A DNA stretch of 62,983 bases, the filler included, from Rhabdomonas costata (taxonomy: Eukaryota): the NCBI GenBank assembly GCA_019059605.1. It is 29 parts of 29 records of this genome, joined end to end, with 100 filler letters (N's around TTAATTAATTAA, not from the genome) between each part and the next. Parts side by side here need not be neighbours in the genome. Positions count along the whole stretch, not along the records: positions 15,234 to 17,313 come from JAHMHO010005838.1; 28 more parts are not named here. One strand, written 5' to 3'. The notes beneath the pieces were generated by a model. The model did not search any database. It saw nothing but the letters and a program-made list of their open reading frames with translations, and was not told where the DNA came from. The position numbers were made by a program, and so were the translations under genes. Of this stretch, positions 1 to 24,567 are shown piece by piece. Within the stretch, counting starts at the first letter, position 1, and each line of letters starts with the position of its first letter.

Positions 1-1429
1 GGTTTTGCAGGGGTCCCGAAGTGGCTTATCCCCGCTCGACACTAAGTCAAACCGAGAGCGAGCCGTGCCCGATGTTGTGGGTGGCACTGGAAACATGGGT
101 CGAATAAGAAGGTCAATGCAGTCTTGCGTGAAGGCAGGCAGGAGCGCCTCGGCAACCTAAACATCCCCTCCCCCCCACTTCCTACCGGAAAATTTTAAAA
201 TGGAGTTGCAGAGAGCTGGGGGCCGATTTAAGAGTCCTGCGGGTGTTTTTGGGAATGGATTCAGGTGCGGGCGCAACGTTGTGGCTGTTTCATGCAAAGT
301 CGATCTCACAGGGCAGAAAAAGCAATAGGAACTGCCATGGAACAGGCATTCATGTGGCTCGCAAGCCCACAACGCTGCCATGCAAACGGACAAAGCCAAA
401 GCTGGAACTGAAAGATGATTTCACTCACAAAAATAAGGCCTCAAAAACTCACCTTGAAGAAACTAATTTTGTATTTCTTTATCCTTGTTTCAATTCCGGG
501 GACAAGGGCATTGCAAACGTTCCTTCCTCTCCTGTAATAACAATAGATTCCTCAACAAAAAAGGACTCTGTAAATGCTAGCTACCTTTTGCAAAGTAGAA
601 ACGTAGACAACTTAAATCAAAAATTGGAGACAAGTTCTGAAGAAGAACCAGCAATGTGTGGCTTACGGTTTCGCGAGCAGGGCGGGGGGGGGGGAAGGGG
701 AGTTCCGACCGCAGGCTGCCCATTTATTTCAATAAGAAAGACGGTGAAGTTCTCGTCCAGCATGAAGTCAAACCCGAAAACTTGGTAGCACAGCAGGTCC
801 GCAAACTCTCCACTGAGCGAGACGTGCACGTGAACAGCTTTTGGGACGCCTTTGCTCTTCCTTTATACAAAACTCTTCCTGATAAGAACGGGGAGATGGA
901 AGGCAGGGGTGAACCTGACGGATTGAAGGAGGTGGGTCTTTACTGCGTCAAAGCACGTCTTTATGATCTCCTTCATCGTGGGAATGACCTGAACACCCAC
1001 AAAAGACAGGGCGCTTATTAGCCCAAAAAAGCTTGATCCAAATGGTTCCGTTAGCCGAGGGCTCTTATTTTCTCTACAATCTCGATGCGCGTTATCGAGG
1101 TGCACAAGGTACCAAACGCAGCACGCAAGCAAGCACACCTGTTCTCTGAAGTTGAGCCCAGGATGTAAAAAGTCGAGGTAATCCTGGAACTGCGAAAAGT
1201 GGTGGCAAAAGCAAACGCAAAGAACGCAAATCTGGAACCTTCTCGTTTAAGCAGAATTCCGCCGGCACAAGGTCGCACTAGCGCAAAGACAGCCCTGGGA
1301 GGTGGGCGGGGTGGGGGTACCTGAGAGTACCACATCTCATTTCCGCACTCGTAAACCGCGAAGTTCGGGCCTTTCTCCTGGACGCAATGGTTACTTAGGT
1401 GAATCAAATCGTTGTTCAGGTCCTCCAAG
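1..1429 (-). CDS. TTL: Tubulin-tyrosine ligase, C-terminal part (5 exons, partial)
   Basis: GT-AG exons 1429-1321, 1189-1139, 988-915, 860-710 and 156-<1 splice in frame to ...LIHLSNHCVQEKGPNF...GNEMWYSQFQDYLDFLHPGLNFREQVIPTMKEIIKTCF...CYQVFGFDFMLDENFTVFLIEINGQPAVAEALLPAFTQDCIDLLIRPMFP. These are the TTL HLxN, FGFDFMLD and LIExNGxP motifs. Confidence 0.9.
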
Positions 1430-2077
1430 CTGAGGGAGAGAGGAAGTTACTCCCAGACAACCGAAATATCAGCTGTTTTTGGGCTTTGCTTTTGTGATAT
1501 GCAATCTGTAGGTCATCAAATATGATGAGAGGGCAAAGGTGAAAGCAAGTGCGAGTAAGATACTACTTGCCACACGCAACAGGAGGTATGCATGAAGGAA
1601 GAGGGAGGGAGAACGGGGGAAGTTTAGAGGTTTACAAACCTAAACGGCTCCGAACAAGTCCGCAAAACTCCTTCGCTCCAGAGCCAGATATTGAACTTTG
1701 GGTCAACGACAACCCAGGACCTGTCGGGCACCCAGAAACGCACCTCTTCGATAAATTCCAATCCTCAAAAACCGACGTTGCAGTTCAAAAAGACCGGAAA
1801 ACATTTGTTTCAGGCACGCATAGGATGCCATTTCAAAAAGGCTTCCCACCGAACCTTCTAGAAATACAAAAAGTTCCGGAAGAGAACCCTTTTCATAATT
1901 CGGAGAAGATCGCGGTGAGCCGATAAGCCTGACCCCATCGCTATCTCATTTTCTGCGGACATTTTCGACGTTGATTGTCATTCTCTCTGTGCGTTGCCTT
2001 TCATCACGGAGGATATGCTAACTGGAAGCTGAACAGAATTGCGATGATATGGAAGCAATCAAACAAAACACGTGCAC

Positions 2078-2177
2078 NNNNNNNNNNNNNNNNNNNNNNN
2101 NNNNNNNNNNNNNNNNNNNNNTTAATTAATTAANNNNNNNNNNNNNNNNNNNNNNNNNNNNNNNNNNNNNNNNNNNN
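2078..2177. other. Artificial contig-joining spacer N44-TTAATTAATTAA-N44 (first of 28)
   Basis: The same 100-nt spacer starts at 2078, 4250, 6428, 8604, 10780, 12957, 15134, 17314, 19491, 21667, 23843, 26019, 28193, 30365, 32541, 34717, 36893, 39069, 41241, 43418, 45588, 47765, 49940, 52114, 54289, 56464, 58638 and 60810. TTAATTAATTAA places stops in all six frames. All 29 contigs are about 2.07-2.08 kb, consistent with length sorting. Confidence 0.98.
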
Positions 2178-2285
2178 TGTGGTTTGGGTTCGTCCGCATT
2201 GAGTTTATTTGTTGAAAAGGGGCAGCAGATGACGTTATCTCTTTCATCCTCATCTCCCGCCCGCCCTGATTGTTTTTCTTGACAG

Positions 2286-3975
2286 AGCAGACTGGGCTTC
2301 CCATGTTCTTGCACAACCGAAACACCGATGGGGACTTCGCAGGTGCCTTCCCGCTTTCCTTGCAAGTGTTCGAAAGTCCAAGGCCCTTGCCAGCGTGCGG
2401 TCGAGCGAGTGGGTTGCTTGAGTGTGGGCAGGTGGATTTGGACCTGGGTCGTTTGCCCTTAAAGCGTTGCCGTAGGTTTGCTTGCGTGTGATATGGGTGG
2501 TGACGTTAACCTTGCAAGGTTGGAAACGGGTTATTTGCTCGCATGGCAGTGTGTTCTCATTGCAAGGCATGCCTGCTGGTTGTGTGACGCAGCTGTGGTT
2601 CGTGCCAACCGCCACCGGTTTGTTGGCGGTGTTGCTCACTCTTTCACGGGAGATCTGCCCGAGCTGCTGAGCCTTCTGGAACTCGACCTGTACATTGGTG
2701 TGTTTCCCGTGAACGAGTTTTTTAATGGCTGTGTATGTGTGTGCGTGTTCGTGCCTCGGGTTTCCCGACGCACTCACGCGCACTGTGCACGATATCAACC
2801 ACACCTCGCCTGCAAGCTTGGCCCGCCTTCGTGCCTTCCTTTCCACACGTGTGTTTGTGCTTTCTTTTAGTTGAACAAGATTCTTCAATTCAAACATCCG
2901 TGTGGTGTAGAGAGAAAAAAGTTGATGATGCATGATGTTCTCGCCGCACTAAGCTGAGTTGAGAGGAAGTTTGGGCAGGGAGGATCATTACTGATAAAAG
3001 GACGGAGGGGCTGCTCACTCTGAACTGATGTCTGTGCTCTTCGCAGGCATCAACGGGGCCTCGTTGAAGACCGAGGAAAACCTCAGCGTGCTTTACCACA
3101 TCCCCCTCAACCGCCTGCTTTTGGAGACGGGTGTTTTTTTGTCTTTATGAGGTCATGTCAAGCTCAGGCTCCAAGAGGCGGTTCTTGAATGCTGAAAGGA
3201 TTCGTGAAATGCACAGTGAGGTGCTCAGCCAGATGTATGGTTGCTGTTCATGCTGGAGAGGGGCAGTTGGGCTTGGGGTCGATGTGGATGTTTAAAAGAA
3301 TCTGCTTGGGCTTTGCCCTCTAAACAAAGGCAATATATTGAGATGCAACGCGTCATAAGTAATGTGGTATCACGGACGTTTATAGTCAGACGAATTTTAG
3401 TGCTAACGGGCTCGCCAGGAGGTGCCGGTGCGTCGCTCCTGCAAGTTTCTTCGGGTTCTCTGCTATTTCGGTGATCAGGGTCGTATGCCGCACATACCCC
3501 GTGCACACACACATGTACACACGTCCACTCCGAAGGTGCCAGCACCGTGACCAACAGCACGTGCGCCCGTCAGTCCACAGTGGTCACTAACAGTCAATCA
3601 GGAAGCAGCCAGCGTGCTATGCGCCCAACGCACACACGCACACATTCTTTCGCACATACCCCACTCATTTTATCTTCATTTGTGTGGTCCATTGTGGTTG
3701 CAATCGTCACCTCCCCCTGTCTGACAGTCTCGGGAGAGTTGCGAGAGGATTGCTGAGAGGACACGTCCACCGCCAAGAAGAATTTACTTGGTGGTATGCG
3801 AACACCTATGCATACATGCTTCCTTTCCCACAGACGCCCCGTGGTGTGACATCCGCAGCACCCACGCCAGCCATCGGTTTCTCAGCTCGGCCACCGCCGC
3901 GGTGGACTCCCGCAAGCGGGAGAAGTTTGAACGAGGCAAGCAGGTGAAGTCTCGGAACGAGCCATGCAACATCAG
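2286..3975 (+). CDS. TATDN1: TatD-family DNase (TATDN1-like), internal 4 exons
   Basis: Exons 2286-2342, 2593-2697, 3047-3130 and 3834-3975 give [38 protein letters not shown]...LDLYIG-INGASLKTEENL...IPLNRLLLETD-APWCDIRSTHAS...VKSRNEPCNI, which are diagnostic TatD motifs. Confidence 0.93.
3541..3645. repeat. Interspersed repeat family A, copy 1 (inside TatD intron), ending in a CA-rich tract
   Basis: AGCACCGTGACCAACAGCACGTGCGCCCGTCAGTCCACAGTGGTCACTAACA...CAGCCAGCGTGCTATGCGCCCAACGCACACAC is near-identical to 43050-43170 on another contig. Confidence 0.85.
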
Positions 3976-4548
3976 GTTCCTGTCTCTATCCGCATGCGAG
4001 TGTTTGATTGACTTCTTACCGCTTACGCTGCGCCTTTCTTATGTTCTGTGATCGACTTCTCCAGCTGTGTTCTTTTTTATTGTTTTTTTTTGGAGCGGCT
4101 GGACGAGACCAAAAGATTTTGTACACTCCCGCTCCCAGCCCCGAGCCCAAGAGACAAAGGCATGCGGCACACAAAATTCCGACTTCGTTTCGACACTTCC
4201 GTTTCCTTTGTGGACAGCGGGTGGTGTTGGGGGAGCAATCCCCAAACAANNNNNNNNNNNNNNNNNNNNNNNNNNNNNNNNNNNNNNNNNNNNTTAATTA
4301 ATTAANNNNNNNNNNNNNNNNNNNNNNNNNNNNNNNNNNNNNNNNNNNNGTTGGGTTGGGACGTGAACTCTCCTTAAGGAGTTCATTGGACAGGAACAAA
4401 AAACTAAAATGCTGCCAAAAAGGGCATCTCGTAAAATGCTTGCTTTCTGGCTTTTATTTCAAATAATTAGCACCGAAACAAAATTTTTTGGCATCAAAAA
4501 GGAAAGCTGTGGCACAGGCAAAGGCAAAGGCTTAGGCACAGTATTACC

Positions 4549-4992
4549 CGACAGAATGGCTGGTAACACCGCTCGAACTCCTGTACGTTCAAAAGCTCGC
4601 CTATAAAAAAATCTTTCAAATTCTCAGTATGGCGAGGTGAAACGGCATAACGAGATAAAACCATTTCGAATGCGAGGGAGAGAGGGAATGGTTTTTCTGT
4701 TTGATCTTGGTGTTCGTTTCCCAAAGGTCTACACTCTCGCCAAAGCAACAAAGAACCGTGAAGTTGCACTTCACCTCCCAGCTTTCGCCCCAATGCGCAT
4801 TACACACGCACGAAAGCCAGCACAAGGCTCACAATGAAGGCAGGGTTCGGGTGCACAAGCATGCCCTGCAGGAGATCGTGTCAGGGCCCAGCACCAGCGC
4901 AGACACCGCCAGCTCGGGTACGGTGGTGGGGGTATGCCTAGGATCGAATATGTCGTCCGTAAACCGCATGGAGAAGCTGCTCTTCCCGCAGC
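4549..4992 (-). CDS. Divergent Rab/Ras-like small GTPase domain fragment
   Basis: Exon 4992-4865 (after a CACAG acceptor) encodes GCGKSSFSMRFTDDIFDPRHTPTTVPELAVSALVLGPDTISCR (P-loop end plus switch-I region). A probable later exon at ~4600-4549 encodes GELLNVQEFERCYQPFCR. The joining phase is unresolved. Confidence 0.6.
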
Positions 4993-6540: not shown

Positions 6541-7479
6541 GTGCTGCAGTACTCCGGGGGTTTAGCGGCGCGAGGTAAGCGGAGCCTATTTCTTGGTTTA
6601 CTACATTATTGTATTATGTATTATGTATTATGTATTACGTATATCTCGCTGCAACTACACGCGTAAGCACATCCGCCTTGGTGACCTGCGCCATGCACTT
6701 TGTGCAATTCGCTTGCTGCATGGCACCATTTCGGCCCTTCAATGCGGGAGTTGGTTTCTTTTCTTGGTTTGGGCACGACTCCCAGCATGAGACACAGCCA
6801 GTTTCGGTAACTCGATGGGCCTGATATCACTCACCTCCGAAGTGCCACCTTGTATGACACTTTGCTTTCCCGTGGCCGTCGTAGTAAATGCAAACTGTTG
6901 AAAACTATCTACAGTGAACGCCAAGACGGGTATTTCACTGAAGTGATAAAACACTACCGAACACGACGAATATACCATCCGAAACCGCACTAGTTGGTGG
7001 GGGGCGGTAGTCGAGGGGCATCGACGACATGGAGGAGTTGCTTTCCGAAAGTTGTTCTGGCCTTTGACGGGACTCATGCAGTTACTCGGCTCGGGGCAGG
7101 ATTTGCCCGGTTGTGGGCAGCTTCTTTACTTCTCGTCTCCAATTACGTGCACACAATTGCAGACGCGTCTTCTAATGTCTTGTTCGCGGAGGGTGTGCAC
7201 TCCTCCTGCGGTCTGTGTCCCACTTGTTCATCAAGCAGAAAGCAATGCGATCTTCCCTAAGATTTGGAAATGTGTACTATGGGTCTGCTGCACAGTGGAC
7301 GCGAAAGAAGAGCTCCTGAGCGGTTCCCCCGAGGAAACCGAGATCCGCGCGGCGACGGTGCAAAGCGTGGAGCAGCTTCGGGCCTGCCTGGAGCACTCCC
7401 ACGGCCTGAGGTTGCGGACGCTGGAGCTGGACTGGCTGCTGTGGCAGACGGGCCACGCCCTGCGAGACCAAATGAGACC
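6541..7479 (+). CDS. QNG1: Queuosine salvage protein (QNG1/C9orf64, DUF2419), C-terminal exons
   Basis: Exon ~6541-6574 (VLQYSGGLAAR, donor GTAAGC) splices in phase to 7296-7479 (VDAKEELLSGSPEETEIRAATVQSVEQLR...LELDWLLWQTGHALRDQMRP), matching the DUF2419 L.YS..L, E.EIR and LD..LW motifs. Confidence 0.85.
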
Positions 7480-9126
7480 GTATCAGGACGGACGAACTGT
7501 ACTTTCTCTGCCTTTCGGGGCATTGTCAGTCAGCGCGCGGAATGTTTTTGCTATGACGTTCTCTCAGCAGTTGCCCCCTCTCCCTCGACGCTGCCGTAGC
7601 TTGCTTGCACGAAATGCTGCAGATTTTATTCGTGTCTTTGTTTGAAGAGCAAGAGGAGAAAAGGAAGGGTGGGCTTGCAGCGCTGCTCTTGTGATGCTTG
7701 TAACTTTGAAGAGTGATTCTCCCTTGGTCCTCCATTCAGCGGCTGTGTGTATCTGTTCTTTCGGGATGGATATTGCTCTTCATGACAAGCGGGCTATCGC
7801 CTGATCAGTCTCTTGGGTTCGTTTTGGAGGTTAATAGGGAGAATGACAGAGGCGTGATGCCATGATTTGGGGAGGAAGTATTCAGTTGCCCAGGGCGCTT
7901 CGGAAGAGTGGGGCAATGACTAATTGGTCCTCATTTCGGTGGTGCAGGCAACCCAGAGAGACACAAGGAATTATCCATCCCACCTCCTCTCCTTTATGTT
8001 GCGCTTGCTGCTTTATGTGGTGCTTTAGCTGCTTTAGCTGGGGGGTGCTGTATTATCCTGGCATCATTCTACACCCATTCCCCTTTCCATTTAGTTCAGG
8101 TCCGTAGCCCCGCAGGGCAAGATAGATGTATGCTGCTGGAATAGCCCCCCAAAACCGACTAAAAGAGGAATATTGTTTAATACGTATGTGTCGTGTCAAA
8201 CGCTATTGGTTTACAACTTTTGTGAAAGGCATGTAAGCCGGAGGCAGCTGTGACATGAAGTGCAGCGACTGTGAAGTGTGGCGACTGACTGAGCGATGAG
8301 ACTTATATCTGCGGAGCTCAGATGTTTACCCAGTCTGTGTGACATCCTCAGCCAAACGCGTCGTGCTCTTGCCGTCTTATCGCTGAGGGCTGGGTGGCAG
8401 TTTTCTACCTCCTCGCTCACGCAGGAGCTTGGAAACGATGCCATCGCGCGCGAAAATTTGCAAAATGAAGTCTTCTTCGGAGCAGCGCAGCACACCACCT
8501 GCTCGCAGCTGCGGACCGCGAATTAAACCCCTGTATAAACCCCCGGACACGGCGCTTGCCTCGCCCTCGCAGCTGACAACTTCCCCCCGAGGCGCCAAAC
8601 AAANNNNNNNNNNNNNNNNNNNNNNNNNNNNNNNNNNNNNNNNNNNNTTAATTAATTAANNNNNNNNNNNNNNNNNNNNNNNNNNNNNNNNNNNNNNNNN
8701 NNNTCCATTTTGCCCCCCCCCCCCTGTACCGCGCAGTCATGAAGGATATCTTCCTTGACACCTCTTGCTACTTCAAACAATGGCGTAGAATCCAGGAAAC
8801 GCCGGGTTGAAACAGACCACTTGCACGACAGTGGGGCTTTTGCAATTTTCTGACAGTCCATGTGTATCCCTCCGCAATCGGCGTTGCAACGTGTGGCTGA
8901 TCTCGTTTCCTTCTGTGGCGTTTGCAGTCCTGAGGCAACAGAGTGGGAATGGCGTCGTGGTTTTCGCTGTGGTTTCGTCCTTTTGTTTTTGCTCTCCAAG
9001 TTTCTTCTAAGCGTTGTGTGTTGCGCTCCTGCTGCCAACGTGCGTACTGCCAAACCACGTCCGTTCCAACCCCTCTCTGTCGTGTATCCTTTCTTCTCTC
9101 ACTCTTCTTTCTGCATGCATTACAAG

Positions 9127-15130: not shown

Positions 15131-15244
15131 CACNNNNNNNNNNNNNNNNNNNNNNNNNNNNNNNNNNNNNNNNNNNNTTAATTAATTAANNNNNNNNNNN
15201 NNNNNNNNNNNNNNNNNNNNNNNNNNNNNNNNNTTTTTGGTTTC

Positions 15245-16171
15245 ATGCAAGGCATGGAGTCCTGGCTTGCTCACAAAGTTGCCAAGAAGAACCCCGTCAC
15301 CATTGAAGGCGCTTACGAGATTGGATGGGAAATTTTCAGGGAGCCAAGACCAGCCCCCAGAGTCACGTACGTGGGTCAGCCTACCGCAGCCCCCCTTCAG
15401 TCTGCGTTTACAACAGTGAAACCACCAACCCTAATGCCTGCAGTCCCAGCTACTGGGCCAACTCCAATGGAGTTGGATGCCGTGAAGTTTTCCCCCTCTA
15501 CCAGCGGCCATGGTCTGTTTTCTATGCAGTCACACACCACCCATGGACTTGGAGCCTGTTTGGCTCTCTCAACTGCTGCTTTTCCAACCAACGGAGCAAC
15601 CCCAATGCCTAACGTCGCAGTTGCCAGCAGTTCCCGACATTGGGACGAGCGCCCTTCAGAGCGCCGCCCCGTGAGTCCCAAGTCGCCGTATAGGGAACGT
15701 GACAGAAGAGAGTCCCCCTACCGCGGAAAAGATCGAGATGAGCGGAGCCCGCGCCGAGACGCGCGCGACTCCCCCCGAAACGTTTACGAACGAGGCCGCG
15801 ATCGGGACCGCTATCAGGACAGAGACAGAAGGGACTCACCTCGAGACCGAGGGGACCGACGTCCGCCCGCCAGAGACGAAGTTTACGAGCGGAGCAGCCA
15901 GAGGCCACCGTCCCCCGCCCGCCGAGACAACAAACCCGTCTCACCAAGATCCGCAGGACGACCTCCAAGCCCCAGTGGGCTACCCCCGCAGGATCGTACC
16001 TGTCACTACTGTGGCCAAGTTGGGCACTTCATCAGAGAATGTCCCCAGCGGAAGACCGAGTCACCCAGAAAGGAGGTGGAGGAGCACAGGGGGTCGGGTA
16101 GCGGGTCGGTTGGAGGTGGAGATGGAGGGCGTAGGGTTGGTTTTGAGAGGTCAAACTGGTGCGGGAGATGA
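15245..16171 (+). CDS. gag: LTR-retrotransposon Gag (Ty3/Gypsy-like), C-terminal part with zinc knuckle
   Basis: Intronless 308-aa ORF with the PTPMELDAV motif, an RD/RS-rich region and a CHYCGQVGHFIREC (CX2CX4HX4C) knuckle. The 5' end is probably cut by the contig edge. Confidence 0.85.
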   Translation: MQGMESWLAHKVAKKNPVTIEGAYEIGWEIFREPRPAPRVTYVGQPTAAPLQSAFTTVKPPTLMPAVPATGPTPMELDAVKFSPSTSGHGLFSMQSHTTHGLGACLALSTAAFPTNGATPMPNVAVASSSRHWDERPSERRPVSPKSPYRERDRRESPYRGKDRDERSPRRDARDSPRNVYERGRDRDRYQDRDRRDSPRDRGDRRPPARDEVYERSSQRPPSPARRDNKPVSPRSAGRPPSPSGLPPQDRTCHYCGQVGHFIRECPQRKTESPRKEVEEHRGSGSGSVGGGDGGRRVGFERSNWCGR

Positions 16172-17313
16172 GATGGGCGCCTGTCTCCCGAGGTGAGGGT
16201 GAGCCCCACGCTGTCCAGGACGGAGCGTGTTGTTGTGTAGAGCTGGGGAGAGAGTTACAAGTATTGTACGGTAATTGTATCAGTAAGGACGGACTACCGG
16301 GTGTAGACGAGGCGCTGGGCTTAATTCGGACGGAGTCATCTTCCTGCGACGAGGCGCCCGCGACGAACTTCCAACGGCTTTGCGTGTGTTGCGCACTGCC
16401 AAGGACGGATTCTGACGAGGCGTCAGGAGTAAGCCTATCGGAGTCTCAACCGGAGCCAGGAAAGGTTCGAAGTCTACTTCCCCTGCTTTTGAAAACTTTG
16501 ACTGATGTCATCAAAACGACAGCAGGACCGAGCGCGACAGCTTCACCGTGCGATGCGGGTTGCGTCTGCGCCGGTTGTGATGCGACGTCATCGGTGTGTG
16601 TTGCACCCCTTACGTCTGAAGCGTCAACTCAAAAAGATTTCGACCAAACGACAGTCATCGTGCGTTGCGAGACTGCCACCCCTGAGGGAACTTCAACTGA
16701 CGTGCGTTACGCCGTTGTGGAACCCCCGTCCAACCGCGACACAGAGTCACTGTCACGTGAGATGCGGTCAGTGCCCCTGTTAAGCAATCCAAACTTGCTG
16801 TCACGTGCGTTGCGGTCAGCAGGTGAGGACAGTAACCCGCCGACGACAGACCCCCCGACCGACGTGCGATGCGCAGTCGTGGGATCAAAGCCTGGAAGCC
16901 ATCCGGAGCCACCGTCACGTGCGATGCGGTCGGTGCCTCTGCTGGGCGATGCTACGCCGCTGCCACGTGTGTTGCGGACAGCGAAGCAGCACAGAAAGCC
17001 GGCGCTGACGGATCGTGTGTTGCGACCGCCAGTGAAGGGTAGTAGTACCAGTATGGTAAGTAGGAGTGAGAACGGGGAGGTGCACGAGTCACACAGACAG
17101 AAGACAAGCGTGAGGGAGAAAGGTTTTGAGCAGGTAACGCTGGGAGATCGACCAGGAATGCTAACACTACCGGATTATTCTTCTTTTTCCCAACCCCACT
17201 TTTCTTTTGCAACCACTACCGGTTTTGTTCCCAAAGAACTAACGCTGACGGCTTTGTTTCCTGAGCGGGTGGTCCCCGACGTTGACGTTTCCATTGAAGA
17301 AGGATCAGACCCC
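16147..17313 (+). CDS. Second retroelement ORF in the -1 frame overlapping the gag end (putative pol N-terminal extension; no protease or RT motif before contig end)
   Basis: Open from 16147 (after TGA 16144-16146) to the contig end, about 385 codons, overlapping gag by 25 nt. Contains a 54-aa duplication (TDVRYAVV...SREMRSVPLL / TDVRCAVV...SRAMRSVPLL). Confidence 0.6.
16383..17024 (+). repeat. Array of the 11-nt motif CGTG(C/T)G(A/T)TGCG with variable spacers; 162-nt higher-order duplication
   Basis: Motif starts at 16383, 16547, 16659, 16701, 16756, 16804, 16863, 16918, 16966 and 17014 (16701 and 16756 have one mismatch each), with more degenerate copies at 16574 and 16595. Confidence 0.85.
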
Positions 17314-22187: not shown

Positions 22188-22552
22188 CTAGTGCTGGAAG
22201 TCCAGAGCCAGACTGCGCAGCTCACACACCTCCACCCATGACCGCACCGCGGGATCCATCACCTCCAGCGCGACAACGAACAGGGTGAGCAGGAAGCTGC
22301 TGTGGCATACCACAGCGACCTCCTTCTTCCCCTGAAGCGAGCCCAGGAACTCTACAAACTTCACCCCGCGCAGGGCCATCTCCGCCCTAGACTCGCGGGT
22401 TGGGGTCCACAGGGTGTCCTCTGGAGGGAGCAGGTCAAAGTCAACTGCAGGGTAATCTTGGCGCAGCTCGGCAACGGTCCGCCTCATGTCGCACAGGTTT
22501 TGACCTATTTGCTCACGGCACAGCTCGTGGGCAATGAACTTTCGAGGGGAAT
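22188..22552 (-). CDS. Histidine phosphatase / phosphoglycerate-mutase-like protein, terminal exon
   Basis: Acceptor CAACAG, then FIAHELCREQIGQNLCDMRR...YPAVDFD...EDTLWTPTRES...RGVKF...EVAVVCHSSFL...CELRS*, typical PGM-like motifs. A possible upstream mini-exon lies at 23333-23301. Confidence 0.88.
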
Positions 22553-24567
22553 CTGTTGATAAAAAAGAAACAAACAGCGGGCTTGTTTCTGAGCCCCGGA
22601 ACTCTGCCATGAGCTGGTTTTGGTGAAGGTAGGCGATGCCCGCTGACGCATCTTTCAAAACGAAACAAACAGCAAAATGAACAAGCGACTGTAAACAAGA
22701 TGGTCATGGTGATGTGCGCACTGGTGAACTTTTCCAGCCGATCCCAGCTCTGGACTGCTCCGTCCTCGATTCTGGTTCCGTTCCTATCCCTGTTGTCCAG
22801 GACACCCACACGGCTGAATGTTCTCTCCTGCTATGCTTCTGTACAGGCTCGGTTTCCTCGGCTCAGCCCCGCTTTACCACTATCGCGGTGGCCTTACGGG
22901 ATTTTTTCTTGCATTTTTCGCGCATAGATTGCCTAAATTCACGTTCGATTTTCTTTTTTGAAAAAGTCAAACCAAAACCATTCATGCAGGTCAATTTCAA
23001 TATGAGGGGGAAAACGTCCATCTCTCAACAAATGGAACAATGGATCAATCAAATGGATCAAATGGATCACTATTGTCTAGGTCAGTCAAAGGGCACAAAG
23101 AAAAAAGAGAGACACTCTTCACACATTTCAGAAAGATGTGGATTCGAACAACAATTGAGCTTCAGCCTAGTTTCCGCATTTTTCCTTTCCTTTCCTATCT
23201 TTTGACATGAAATGACCATCTCAGCACTCAATAGCACACCTGTGTTCCCAAAGGCAATCAGAGCCGTCTCAATCGCCCGAGAAAGAGGAGGGACGACCAC
23301 CGTCTCGCAGTGGTTGTTGTCCTTGACGTACACCTGAAGTCCCTGGGCCTGAAACCGCGTGCATCTTGCGAAAGCACGGCCGATATACCAACTGAGTGGT
23401 ACAGTGCGGCATTTGGTGATGTTAAGCTTGGTTCAATTTTGTGTGGTAAACGATGTTTGATGATGCTTACGCGTGATAGCGTTTAACAACATAAAGACCA
23501 TAGTACATAAGGGAGCAGTGAAACCCTCAGTTACAAAATGCTATCCTCCAAGAGCACAGACAAGGGATGCTCAACACCCAGGCTTGGTAAATCAACCTAG
23601 CTCGTTCCCCGGTGGAATGAACAGCGCTTGTCCTGCGTGTGTTCCTCACGGAACGGTGTGCCTGTACCACCCGTCACGCCCTCAGCGATAGCGAGCGGGT
23701 TTTATACAGCCACAGCGGACAGGCTAAGTGCTGCCCCAGCGCGCGAGATGCGTCCAGTCGCAGCACCTCCCCGATAAATGAATGGTGTGAACAGGCAGGA
23801 GAGGGGATGGAAGGCGGTCTCCTACCTGTTCACACCCACACCNNNNNNNNNNNNNNNNNNNNNNNNNNNNNNNNNNNNNNNNNNNNTTAATTAATTAANN
23901 NNNNNNNNNNNNNNNNNNNNNNNNNNNNNNNNNNNNNNNNNNGTGGTGGGTGTGTTTGGGGTTGGGTGGGGCGCGGGTACTGGGCATTAGAGCTGCGGTT
24001 GGCGTGGAGCACTGCGAAACCATCAGAGTTTGCTCCTGTTCTTAAACTTTAATATGTCCAGGCGCTAACCCTCTTTTGCCTAGTAAGATGCCTTTCAGGG
24101 TCACGGGGGTACACCTTAACGGTTCCAAAAAAAACCTGCAACGCTATGGTTTGGCCGTTTAACGCTATTATCCATAGCATCGCCATCTCACCCTAAATGC
24201 CACCCTCCCTCCTTTCGTCCGCGCCGCTGATTGGTTTCCACAAAAAGGCAACCGCTCGTCAACCAAAGCCCCAATAAAAAAACTGGGGAGCGGTTTCACG
24301 TCGAGCAACCCACCCGACGCTCCCCACTGCCGATGTTTTTGTGATCGGTTCAGCTTTATTGACCAAAGAAAAAGGCTCATGTGTTTGCGGTATGTTGGGG
24401 TGTTGTTTAATCGTAGAGCAGTTTTCATGTACGCTTGCCGCAGGGCAGAACTTATGCACCTGGATCTTCGGTAAAGGAAGGCCGGGCTTGCCTGTATCCT
24501 CCTTTTTGACTTCAGAGCACGTTCTCTTCTGTCTGCCTCTTTGGATTTGGACGATCGTTTTTTCTGA

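What the first reader, a model, noticed from the sequence alone, without database searches (positions are those of the whole stretch)
16383..17024. Regularly interspaced 11-nt motif array inside a retrotransposon ORF, conserved across reading frames
Seen: CGTG(C/T)G(A/T)TGCG occurs 10 times (two with one mismatch) plus 2 degenerate copies. Core start-to-start spacings are 42, 55, 48, 59, 55, 48 and 48 nt, with much more divergent spacers and a 162-nt super-period. Because 55 and 59 are not multiples of 3, the motif is read as VRC/VRY in some copies and REM/RAL/RAM/RVL in others, yet the ORF stays open for about 385 codons. Inference: selection acts on the nucleotide motif (DNA-binding-site array, RNA packaging or structure signal, or repeat-spacer RNA) overlaid on an unusually long gag-pol linker lacking a protease motif. 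This is the best candidate for an undescribed system in the window. It is not a CRISPR array.
Basis: partly seen in the sequence, partly recalled or inferred. Interest (0 to 1): 0.7.

Follow-up and report, generated by a model that had tools for sequence, protein, structure and literature searches.

The report
Hairpin array inside retrotransposon pol linker
The repeated 11-letter word is the fixed tip of eleven small fold-back hairpins, written into the protein-coding linker of a jumping gene, whose stems differ from copy to copy yet still pair, which suggests repeated docking sites on the element's own RNA, although the partner protein and even the strand that is read remain unproven.

Summary
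The array is real (10 copies, spacings and frames as reported), but the motif is only the tip of a larger unit. Each copy caps a ~33-nt hairpin: a lower stem, a one-base offset, a 3-4-pair upper stem and a GYGWU loop. Stems differ between units yet pair within each unit: 63% Watson-Crick at one register against 36% for the best register of swapped flanks (p 5e-5). Pairing survives ~35% divergence to a sister family (35 of 45 pairs against ~24 expected). The element is a Ty3/gypsy LTR retrotransposon with a likely -1 gag-pol frameshift. The 'missing protease' is a contig end: other copies reach LLDSG in frame. Against: no extra conservation among decayed same-family copies, unexceptional folding energy, and an unresolved strand. 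Best guess: multivalent docking sites for Gag on genomic RNA, working like the repeated coding-region packaging hairpins of alphaviruses and coronaviruses. Rivals are a host RNA-binding protein (decay shield, export) and minus-strand hairpins. I found no paper on such arrays in LTR retrotransposons. This scan has already noted comparable hairpin arrays, with other loops, in at least eight other retroelements (unchecked AI notes).

The parts
15236..16171 (+). 3' part of gag (open at the contig start): RS/RD-rich low-complexity stretch, one CCHC zinc knuckle, stop TGA at 16169-16171
15995..16048 (+). CCHC zinc knuckle (nucleocapsid), candidate reader of the hairpin loops
   Evidence: Pfam zf-CCHC E 1.4e-6, aa 254-271; binding is inference
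16150..16156 (+). Candidate -1 frameshift heptamer G_UCA_AAC (G_UUA_AAC in sister family B)
   Evidence: 15 of 25 distinct junction contexts GTCAAAC, 5 GTTAAAC; pol is in the -1 frame; not tested experimentally
16163..16189 (+). Stem-loop 6 nt after the heptamer (candidate frameshift stimulator); its 5' arm holds an ATGA start/stop overlap at 16168-16171
   Evidence: fold -10.2 kcal/mol, z -1.2, so not exceptional; kept in families A and B
16147..17313 (+). pol 5' ORF: ~390-aa low-constraint linker before the protease, cut by the contig end
   Evidence: no Pfam, homolog or Atlas hit
16372..16403 (+). hairpin unit 1 (motif 16383; lower stem in a shifted register)
   Evidence: orthologue in family B
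16536..16567 (+). hairpin unit 2 (motif 16547)
16584..16615 (+). hairpin unit 3 (motif 16595, C-G changed to U-A at the outer motif pair); the two-mismatch copy at 16613 overlaps its 3' arm and is probably not a separate unit
16648..16679 (+). hairpin unit 4 (motif 16659)
16690..16721 (+). hairpin unit 5 (motif 16701; U.G changed to U-A)
16745..16776 (+). hairpin unit 6 (motif 16756)
16793..16824 (+). hairpin unit 7 (motif 16804)
16852..16883 (+). hairpin unit 8 (motif 16863)
16907..16938 (+). hairpin unit 9 (motif 16918)
16955..16986 (+). hairpin unit 10 (motif 16966)
17003..17034 (+). hairpin unit 11 (motif 17014)
16689..17012 (+). 162-nt tandem duplication carrying units 5-7 and 8-10; probably older than the split from family B
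   Evidence: gapless 255-nt alignment 16694-16948 to a family B copy

Best explanation
The finding is an array of eleven ~33-nt hairpins written into the long inter-domain linker at the start of pol of a Ty3/gypsy LTR retrotransposon. Shown: each unit has a variable lower stem, a one-base offset on the 5' side, a 3-4-pair upper stem (C-G, G-C, U.G) and a fixed GYGWU loop; stems change in matched pairs while the linker protein drifts and even changes frame. Inferred: the hairpins form on the full-length sense RNA and are repeated docking sites for one protein. The most likely protein is the element's own Gag, whose single zinc knuckle would bind the exposed loop guanines weakly at each site and strongly across many. 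Most ribosomes should stop at the gag stop codon and only the -1 frameshifters enter the array, so it would be mostly ribosome-free and could nucleate capsid assembly and select this family's RNA for packaging. The linker's length would then be largely a by-product of housing the array.
For: Units picked by motif alone pair at one register: 68% (63% Watson-Crick only), against a best-register mean of 46% (36%) for swapped flanks, p 5e-5. Without the three duplicated units, 37 of 63 pairs, exact p 2e-4. The cognate-minus-swapped energy gap is -4.2 kcal/mol at motif centres, +0.5 +/- 0.8 at 150 random centre sets, and vanishes on shifting by 6-20 nt (p 1e-5). Over 16 units of two families, 70.7% of cells are paired vs 51% shuffled (0 of 500) and 25-47% slid; the three motif pairs hold in 16 of 16 units, with C-G to U-A twice. 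In a gapless orthologous block, 34 of 45 lower-stem pairs are paired in family A and 35 of 45 in family B, against 22-25 expected (p <= 5e-4); identity is about flat across codon positions, 0.59-0.66. Motif frames differ within and between families. The model finds the unit only in the pre-protease region of families A and B, not in the 5' or 3' loci scanned. Seven of 31 anchored copies share a junction that cuts pol short after the protease start, and five of those seven still show motifs upstream (weak, could be positional). Precedent: repeated loop-conserved hairpins in coding regions serve as alphavirus packaging signals (PMC5869531, PMC6283419), and coronavirus repetitive structural motifs sit in inter-domain regions of the polyprotein (PMC8206606).
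Against: No binding or expression data. The strand is unresolved: unit energies are -11.6 sense vs -11.25 antisense; lower stems carry 15 A.C vs 7 G.U mismatches, which leans to the minus strand (p 0.2); local folding z-scores are -0.9 sense vs -2.1 antisense for family A (-0.1 vs -2.6). In 200-nt context only 7 of 11 hairpins reach P >= 0.7. Among family A copies, paired sites are no less variable than others at any sharing threshold. Family B tips are partly degenerate (2 of 5 orthologous tips differ from the motif at 4 or more letters). Related families at about 50-60% protease identity have long linkers with no such array, so it is not required across the clade. In Ty1 the packaging determinants lie near the 5' end, and Ty3 nt 429-4979 were dispensable in trans (PMC4974528, passages).
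Confidence: 0.42

Rival explanations
1. Same sense-strand hairpins, but read by a host RNA-binding protein: a shield against nonsense-mediated decay just downstream of the gag stop, or an export/localisation element.
For: The array starts ~200 nt after the gag stop. [quoted passage not shown] All structural evidence fits equally.
Against: A host reader should serve all families in the genome, yet only families A and B carry this loop. No Rfam family matches. Whether this host has such decay or export factors was not tested.
Confidence: 0.24
2. The working form is the minus strand (single-stranded cDNA during reverse transcription, or antisense RNA), where each unit is a hairpin with a 7-nt CAWCRCA loop acting as a pause, priming or protein-binding site.
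For: Antisense folds as well or better; A.C mismatches outnumber G.U 15 to 7 in lower stems.
Against: The excess is not significant (p 0.2), and in orthologous changes it is 5 vs 4. The innermost pair is U.G in 13 of 16 units and changes only to U-A or C-G, which suits the sense strand, although these changes are all transitions. The minus strand is short-lived (established knowledge).
Confidence: 0.12
3. Neutral origin: one ancestral hairpin was tandemly duplicated by template switching, and quasi-palindrome correction copied mutations from arm to arm, giving covariation without function.
For: Units 5-10 come from a duplication; some copies have lost whole units between motifs; no selection is visible among same-family copies; overall folding is unexceptional.
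Against: Arm-copying should erase asymmetry, yet the one-base offset and the U.G pair persist across units whose stems share no sequence. The loop stays fixed while stems turn over. None of 128 unrelated motif-bearing repeats reached both the window's flank divergence (0.72) and its pairing (0.61); the nearest were 0.57/0.67, 0.54/0.60 and 0.71/0.55.
Confidence: 0.1
4. The hairpins tune translation in cis: they slow the ribosomes that have frameshifted into pol, or set the Gag to Gag-Pol ratio.
For: [quoted passage not shown]
Against: Pausing needs stability, not a fixed loop sequence; the units are only about -7 to -15 kcal/mol.
Confidence: 0.07
5. A double-stranded DNA binding-site array (E-box/ACGT-like or CpG-related), a protein repeat, or an ordinary decayed minisatellite.
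For: Four units read CACGTG across the motif start; motif CpGs are somewhat better kept than spacer CpGs (30 of 52 vs 43 of 56 variable, p 0.04, at one threshold only).
Against: None of these predicts unit-specific complementary flanks. The motif is read in three frames. Genome-wide, the motif is only 413 vs 231 for the reversed control, and this element accounts for many of the listed places.
Confidence: 0.05

Closest known systems
Alphavirus packaging signal in nsP1 (SINV/VEEV)
   Same: A cluster of stem-loops with a shared G-containing loop motif inside a polyprotein coding region, where structure, motif and number matter (PMC5869531, two passages; PMC6283419, passages)
   Different: RNA virus, GGG tips, capsid binding supported by experiment; here a retrotransposon, GYGWU loop with a fixed upper stem and one-base offset, and no function tested
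Coronavirus repetitive structural motifs (SL5 UUYCGU loops; Embecovirus agc/guAAu repeats in nsp3 and nsp15)
   Same: Lineage-specific repeated structural units placed in inter-domain regions of a polyprotein (PMC8206606, abstract and first part of the discussion)
   Different: Those units are branches or internal loops of one larger element; here eleven separate hairpins at 42-64 nt spacing (one 164 nt upstream); no sequence relation
Dispersed packaging signals of MS2 and other ssRNA viruses
   Same: Variable stems around a shared loop motif, with a 5' bulge, as in the MS2 TR stem-loop (PMC6281560, passages)
   Different: Dispersed over the genome rather than clustered; different protein fold; the bulged base here is not a fixed A
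[quoted passage not shown]
   Same: A cis element inside pol just downstream of the gag stop (PMC2925335, abstract)
   Different: A single 155-nt minimal element, not a repeated covarying hairpin
Ty3/gypsy (Metaviridae) LTR retrotransposons, e.g. Ty3
   Same: gag with CCHC; pol order protease, RT, RNase H, integrase; separate frames for gag and pol
   Different: About 390 aa precede the protease; packaging sequences of Ty1 and Ty3 are described as not clearly defined and no such array is mentioned in the passages read (PMC4974528, PMC8396678)

Membership tests
Ty3/gypsy LTR retrotransposon | gag with CCHC nucleocapsid | tested here: met
Ty3/gypsy LTR retrotransposon | pol order protease - RT - RNase H - integrase | tested here: met
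   On other family A copies: array, protease and RT on L094; protease then RNase H on L100; protease then integrase on L098 (RT E 6.6e-4 and integrase E 1.1e-3 are weak hits on decayed fragments)
Ty3/gypsy LTR retrotransposon | paired LTRs, PBS, polypurine tract | not tested
   No full-length copy among the short contigs fetched; LTR ends were not mapped
Repeated RNA packaging signal (alphavirus/coronavirus/MS2 type) | several stem-loops sharing a loop motif on variable stems | tested here: met
Repeated RNA packaging signal (alphavirus/coronavirus/MS2 type) | formed on the packaged (sense) strand | tested here: inconclusive
Repeated RNA packaging signal (alphavirus/coronavirus/MS2 type) | bound by the capsid protein and needed for selective packaging | not testable with these tools
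   needs binding and packaging assays
Known Rfam RNA family | match to a covariance model | tested here: not met
   one chance hit (E 0.36) outside the array
Minisatellite / tandem repeat | units alike along their whole length | tested here: not met
   No Tandem Repeats Finder array here; spacers unrelated across frame classes
CRISPR-like repeat-spacer array | spacers independent of the repeat, of near-constant length | tested here: not met
   Spacer ends pair across the motif; the array lies inside an open pol frame
-1 programmed frameshift signal | slippery heptamer, 5-9 nt spacer, downstream structure, pol in -1 frame | tested here: inconclusive
   Geometry met, but G_UCA_AAC is an imperfect heptamer and an ATGA stop/start overlap offers reinitiation instead

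The most novel reading that the evidence does not exclude
LTR retrotransposon families write a family-specific multivalent hairpin 'barcode' into a disposable pol linker, which their own Gag reads to select cognate genomic RNA among the many related families in one genome: packaging-signal-mediated assembly of the RNA-virus type in Metaviridae.
Probability: 0.3. Interest if true: 0.75.

Novelty: new variant of a known kind. Interest (0 to 1): 0.55.

Why it matters
How LTR retrotransposons pick their own RNA for packaging is described as unsettled even for Ty1 and Ty3 (PMC4974528, PMC8396678). A compact, precisely formatted, covarying hairpin repeated eleven times gives a concrete target for probing and binding tests. 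It would extend the multiple-signal model of RNA viruses to retrotransposons, and would explain why some pol genes carry long, fast-drifting linkers. The limits are a non-model host, decayed copies, and a distribution so far of two sister families in one assembly.

Tried and rejected
1) Motif vs spacer divergence among family A copies: equal, 9.0% vs 9.1%. Codon-position rates were also nearly flat in gag, so these differences are mostly post-insertion decay and the test has little power. Shared-variant versions gave p 0.01-0.04 at one threshold only, after CpG stratification, and nothing for paired sites. 2) pN/pS in the pol frame across the array was 0.73-0.97, lowest of the three frames but close to neutral. 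3) Relatives outside this genome: none for the linker protein (longer proteins only); four unnamed protease relatives at 50-58%; none in metagenome contigs. Motif-array scans gave 104 metagenome and 24 viral loci, none with a tblastn link to five query proteins, mostly ordinary tandem or TGCG-type repeats. 4) Own motif arrays in more distant families: only a TCAGAGGAG-like word in one family, without consistent hairpins; those copies are short and decayed, so absence is weak. 5) Whole-region folding is not better than shuffles on the sense strand (z +0.93; family B z -1.96). 6) The copy at 16613 ranked 9 of 11 in its own flank test and was dropped as a unit; 16595 replaced it. 16574 was left out of the unit set. 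7) The protein strings printed for the block are in the wrong frame and were not used. 8) No expression data could be obtained for this window, and the model could be run only on fetched loci, so transcription and genome-wide distribution are open. 9) Literature: nine searches showed no paper on a repeated hairpin array in an LTR retrotransposon pol; the library lacks most subscription journals, and no supplements were read.

Full report
Context. The window is 29 contigs of about 2 kb joined by N-linkers. The finding lies on the contig at 15234-17313, which is G000:C5838 in a 97-Mb assembly of 104,289 contigs. Earlier scan notes call the host a euglenid; I did not test this. The contig holds the 3' part of a gag with a CCHC knuckle (E 1.4e-6) and a second ORF in the -1 frame, open for 389 codons up to the contig end. 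A DNA search scored 40 of 128 candidates and returned 45 matches on 40 contigs at 77-100% identity; I call these family A.

Observation. The counts, spacings, 162-nt duplication and frame changes are as reported. The motif is in fact read in all three frames. Across frame classes, identity is high at 9 of 11 motif positions and mostly at background immediately outside, and spacers align clearly only between duplicated units. One claim fails. The protease is not missing: other copies continue in frame to LLDSG 28-29 codons past the SIEEGSDP that ends the contig (6 of 28 anchored rows; most others are decayed at that place), and Pfam confirms it. RT, RNase H and integrase follow in Ty3/gypsy order on other family A contigs (RT and integrase hits are weak). 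At the gag end, G_UCA_AAC is followed after 6 nt by a stem-loop; 20 of 25 distinct junction contexts have GTCAAAC or GTTAAAC at that place. This is the geometry of a -1 frameshift. The frameshifting review (PMC5009743, passages) lists U_UUA_AAC and G_GGA_AAC among shifty sites and says many animal LTR elements have pol in -1; that G_UUA_AAC is the equine arteritis virus site is recalled. An ATGA overlap at 16168-16171 leaves reinitiation open.

What the motif is. Folding 16530-17040 showed the same small hairpin at several motifs. In the motif, C1 pairs with G11, G2 with C10 and U3 with G9, around a GYGWU loop. The flanks differ from unit to unit but are complementary within a unit, for example CACTG/CAGTG at 16756, CACCG/CGGTG at 16918, TGCTG/CAGCA at 16804 and CGCTG/CAGCG at 16966. 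At one register, which implies a one-base offset on the 5' side, 68% of lower-stem positions pair (63% Watson-Crick), against 46% (36%) for the best of eight registers after swapping flanks, p 5e-5. Removing the three duplicated units leaves 37 of 63, exact p 2e-4. The cognate-versus-swapped energy gap is -4.2 kcal/mol at the motifs, +0.5 +/- 0.8 at 150 random centre sets (minimum -1.9), and disappears on shifting the centre by 6-20 nt. One search gave -10.8 vs -5.4 kcal/mol, permutation p 1e-5. The two-mismatch copy at 16595 is a unit with a compensatory U-A; 16613 is not a unit. That makes eleven hairpins, the only strong hits of the model in the window (they match by construction).

A sister family gives independent divergence. 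Family B (36 of 36 candidates scored) shares the junction and a gapless 255-nt block at 62% identity with 16694-16948. In its five orthologous units, 34 of 45 lower-stem positions pair in A and 35 of 45 in B, against 22-25 expected from the observed substitution spectra (p <= 5e-4 for both B copies tested). Of the doubly changed pairs, 4 of 5 stay paired in L101 and 5 of 6 in L163. Identity is 0.71 in motifs, 0.66-0.67 in stems and 0.53-0.59 in linkers, and nearly flat over codon positions. Over 16 units of both families, 70.7% of cells pair vs 51% shuffled (0 of 500) and 25-47% slid, and the three motif pairs hold in all 16. The five B units in that set were picked by a fold criterion and the structure was read from these sequences, so leans towards the model; searches are the cleaner tests.

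Results against. Among family A copies neither the motif nor paired sites are better kept than their surroundings; these copies differ mostly by decay after insertion, which limits the test. Shared variants gave a weak motif signal at one of four thresholds. The region as a whole does not fold better than shuffles on the sense strand. In 200-nt context, 7 of 11 hairpins reach P >= 0.7 on the sense strand and 4 of 11 on the antisense strand. The strand is not resolved: unit energies are equal, and A.C outnumbers G.U 15 to 7 in lower stems, not significantly. Two of five orthologous B tips are degenerate while their lower stems persist. More distant families (about 50-60% protease identity; 40 contigs picked from 150 hits plus the returned loci) have long linkers without this unit and without a clear array of their own. 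No relative was found outside this assembly, and Rfam has no match.

Mechanism. Shown: a fixed tip on freely covarying stems, repeated eleven times in a translated but low-constraint linker. Inferred: that format is what a protein recognises when it reads loop letters on a folded single strand. The sense RNA is the long-lived single-stranded form, and the loop shows G at positions 1 and 3 (16 and 15 of 16 units); that retroviral zinc knuckles favour exposed loop guanines is recalled. A Gag with one knuckle would gain avidity from many sites. Since most ribosomes should stop at the gag stop, the array would be mostly free to fold. I put Gag docking for packaging or assembly at 0.42, a host RNA-binding protein at 0.24, minus-strand function at 0.12, neutral duplication with arm-copying at 0.10, translational tuning at 0.07 and the rest at 0.05. 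A shortened subfamily (7 of 31 anchored copies share one junction after the protease start; the classing is approximate) keeps motifs in five of seven, as a cis signal would, but position alone could explain that.

Comparison. It works like the alphavirus packaging signal, eight predicted GGG-tipped stem-loops in the nsP1 coding sequence (PMC5869531, two passages; PMC6283419, passages), like coronavirus repetitive structural motifs in inter-domain regions (PMC8206606, abstract and part 1 of the discussion) and like MS2-type signals (PMC6281560, passages). It shares position with the RSV stability element (PMC2925335, abstract and outline). It is not shown to belong to any of them: strand is inconclusive and binding untested. 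Reviews of Ty1 and Ty3 describe packaging sequences as not clearly defined (PMC4974528, PMC8396678, passages). PMC10309623 held none of my four search terms, and bioRxiv 10.64898/2026.05.21.726589 (passages) covers Euglena LTR elements without mentioning RNA hairpins. Nine paper searches showed no description of such an array in an LTR element; subscription journals and supplements were not seen. These are unchecked AI notes and not support; my hairpin reading was written down before I saw them, and the alphavirus comparison came from one of them.

Verdict. A real feature, reinterpreted: a covarying hairpin array in the pol linker of two sister Ty3/gypsy families. New variant of a known kind; interest 0.55.

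Noticed in passing
whole window: The window is 29 separate ~2-kb contigs joined by N-TTAATTAATTAA-N linkers, so neighbouring pieces are unrelated.
   Followed up: yes
window 16147-16215: Dual-looking gag-pol junction: candidate -1 heptamer plus stem-loop, and an ATGA stop/start overlap, both kept in families A and B; the loop GGGC could pair with a kept GCCC about 13 nt downstream.
   Followed up: partly
L004/L031 (G000:C68), L034, L035, L036, L039, L040, L048: A subfamily shares one junction that leaves the protease after LMSVRVA and enters a proline-rich stretch; it looks like a deletion derivative that spread in trans.
   Followed up: partly
L163:170-200, L169, L170, L162: Family B has a variable-length in-frame hexamer repeat (Thr-Ser)n early in the pol linker.
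   Followed up: no
window 15680-15960: Gag carries an RS/RD-rich low-complexity stretch before the zinc knuckle, like SR-type RNA-binding proteins.
   Followed up: no
family A copies over window 16383-17034: Shared variants among decayed copies are dominated by G>T and C>A changes rather than CpG transitions.
   Followed up: no
window 6950-7642 (+) and 22191-22703 (-): Pfam hits on other contigs: queuosine salvage protein (E 8e-9) and a weak histidine phosphatase hit (E 6e-4).
   Followed up: no
L117, L120, L132 pre-protease region: A more distant family repeats a TCAGAGGAG-like word 7-10 times at two mismatches (shuffles 3-7), without consistent hairpins.
   Followed up: partly
L233/L234 and L180, L187, L195, L200, L202: Unrelated metagenome contigs hold the same 11-mer in tandem arrays (33-34 copies) or in TGCG-type microsatellites on both strands.
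   Followed up: no
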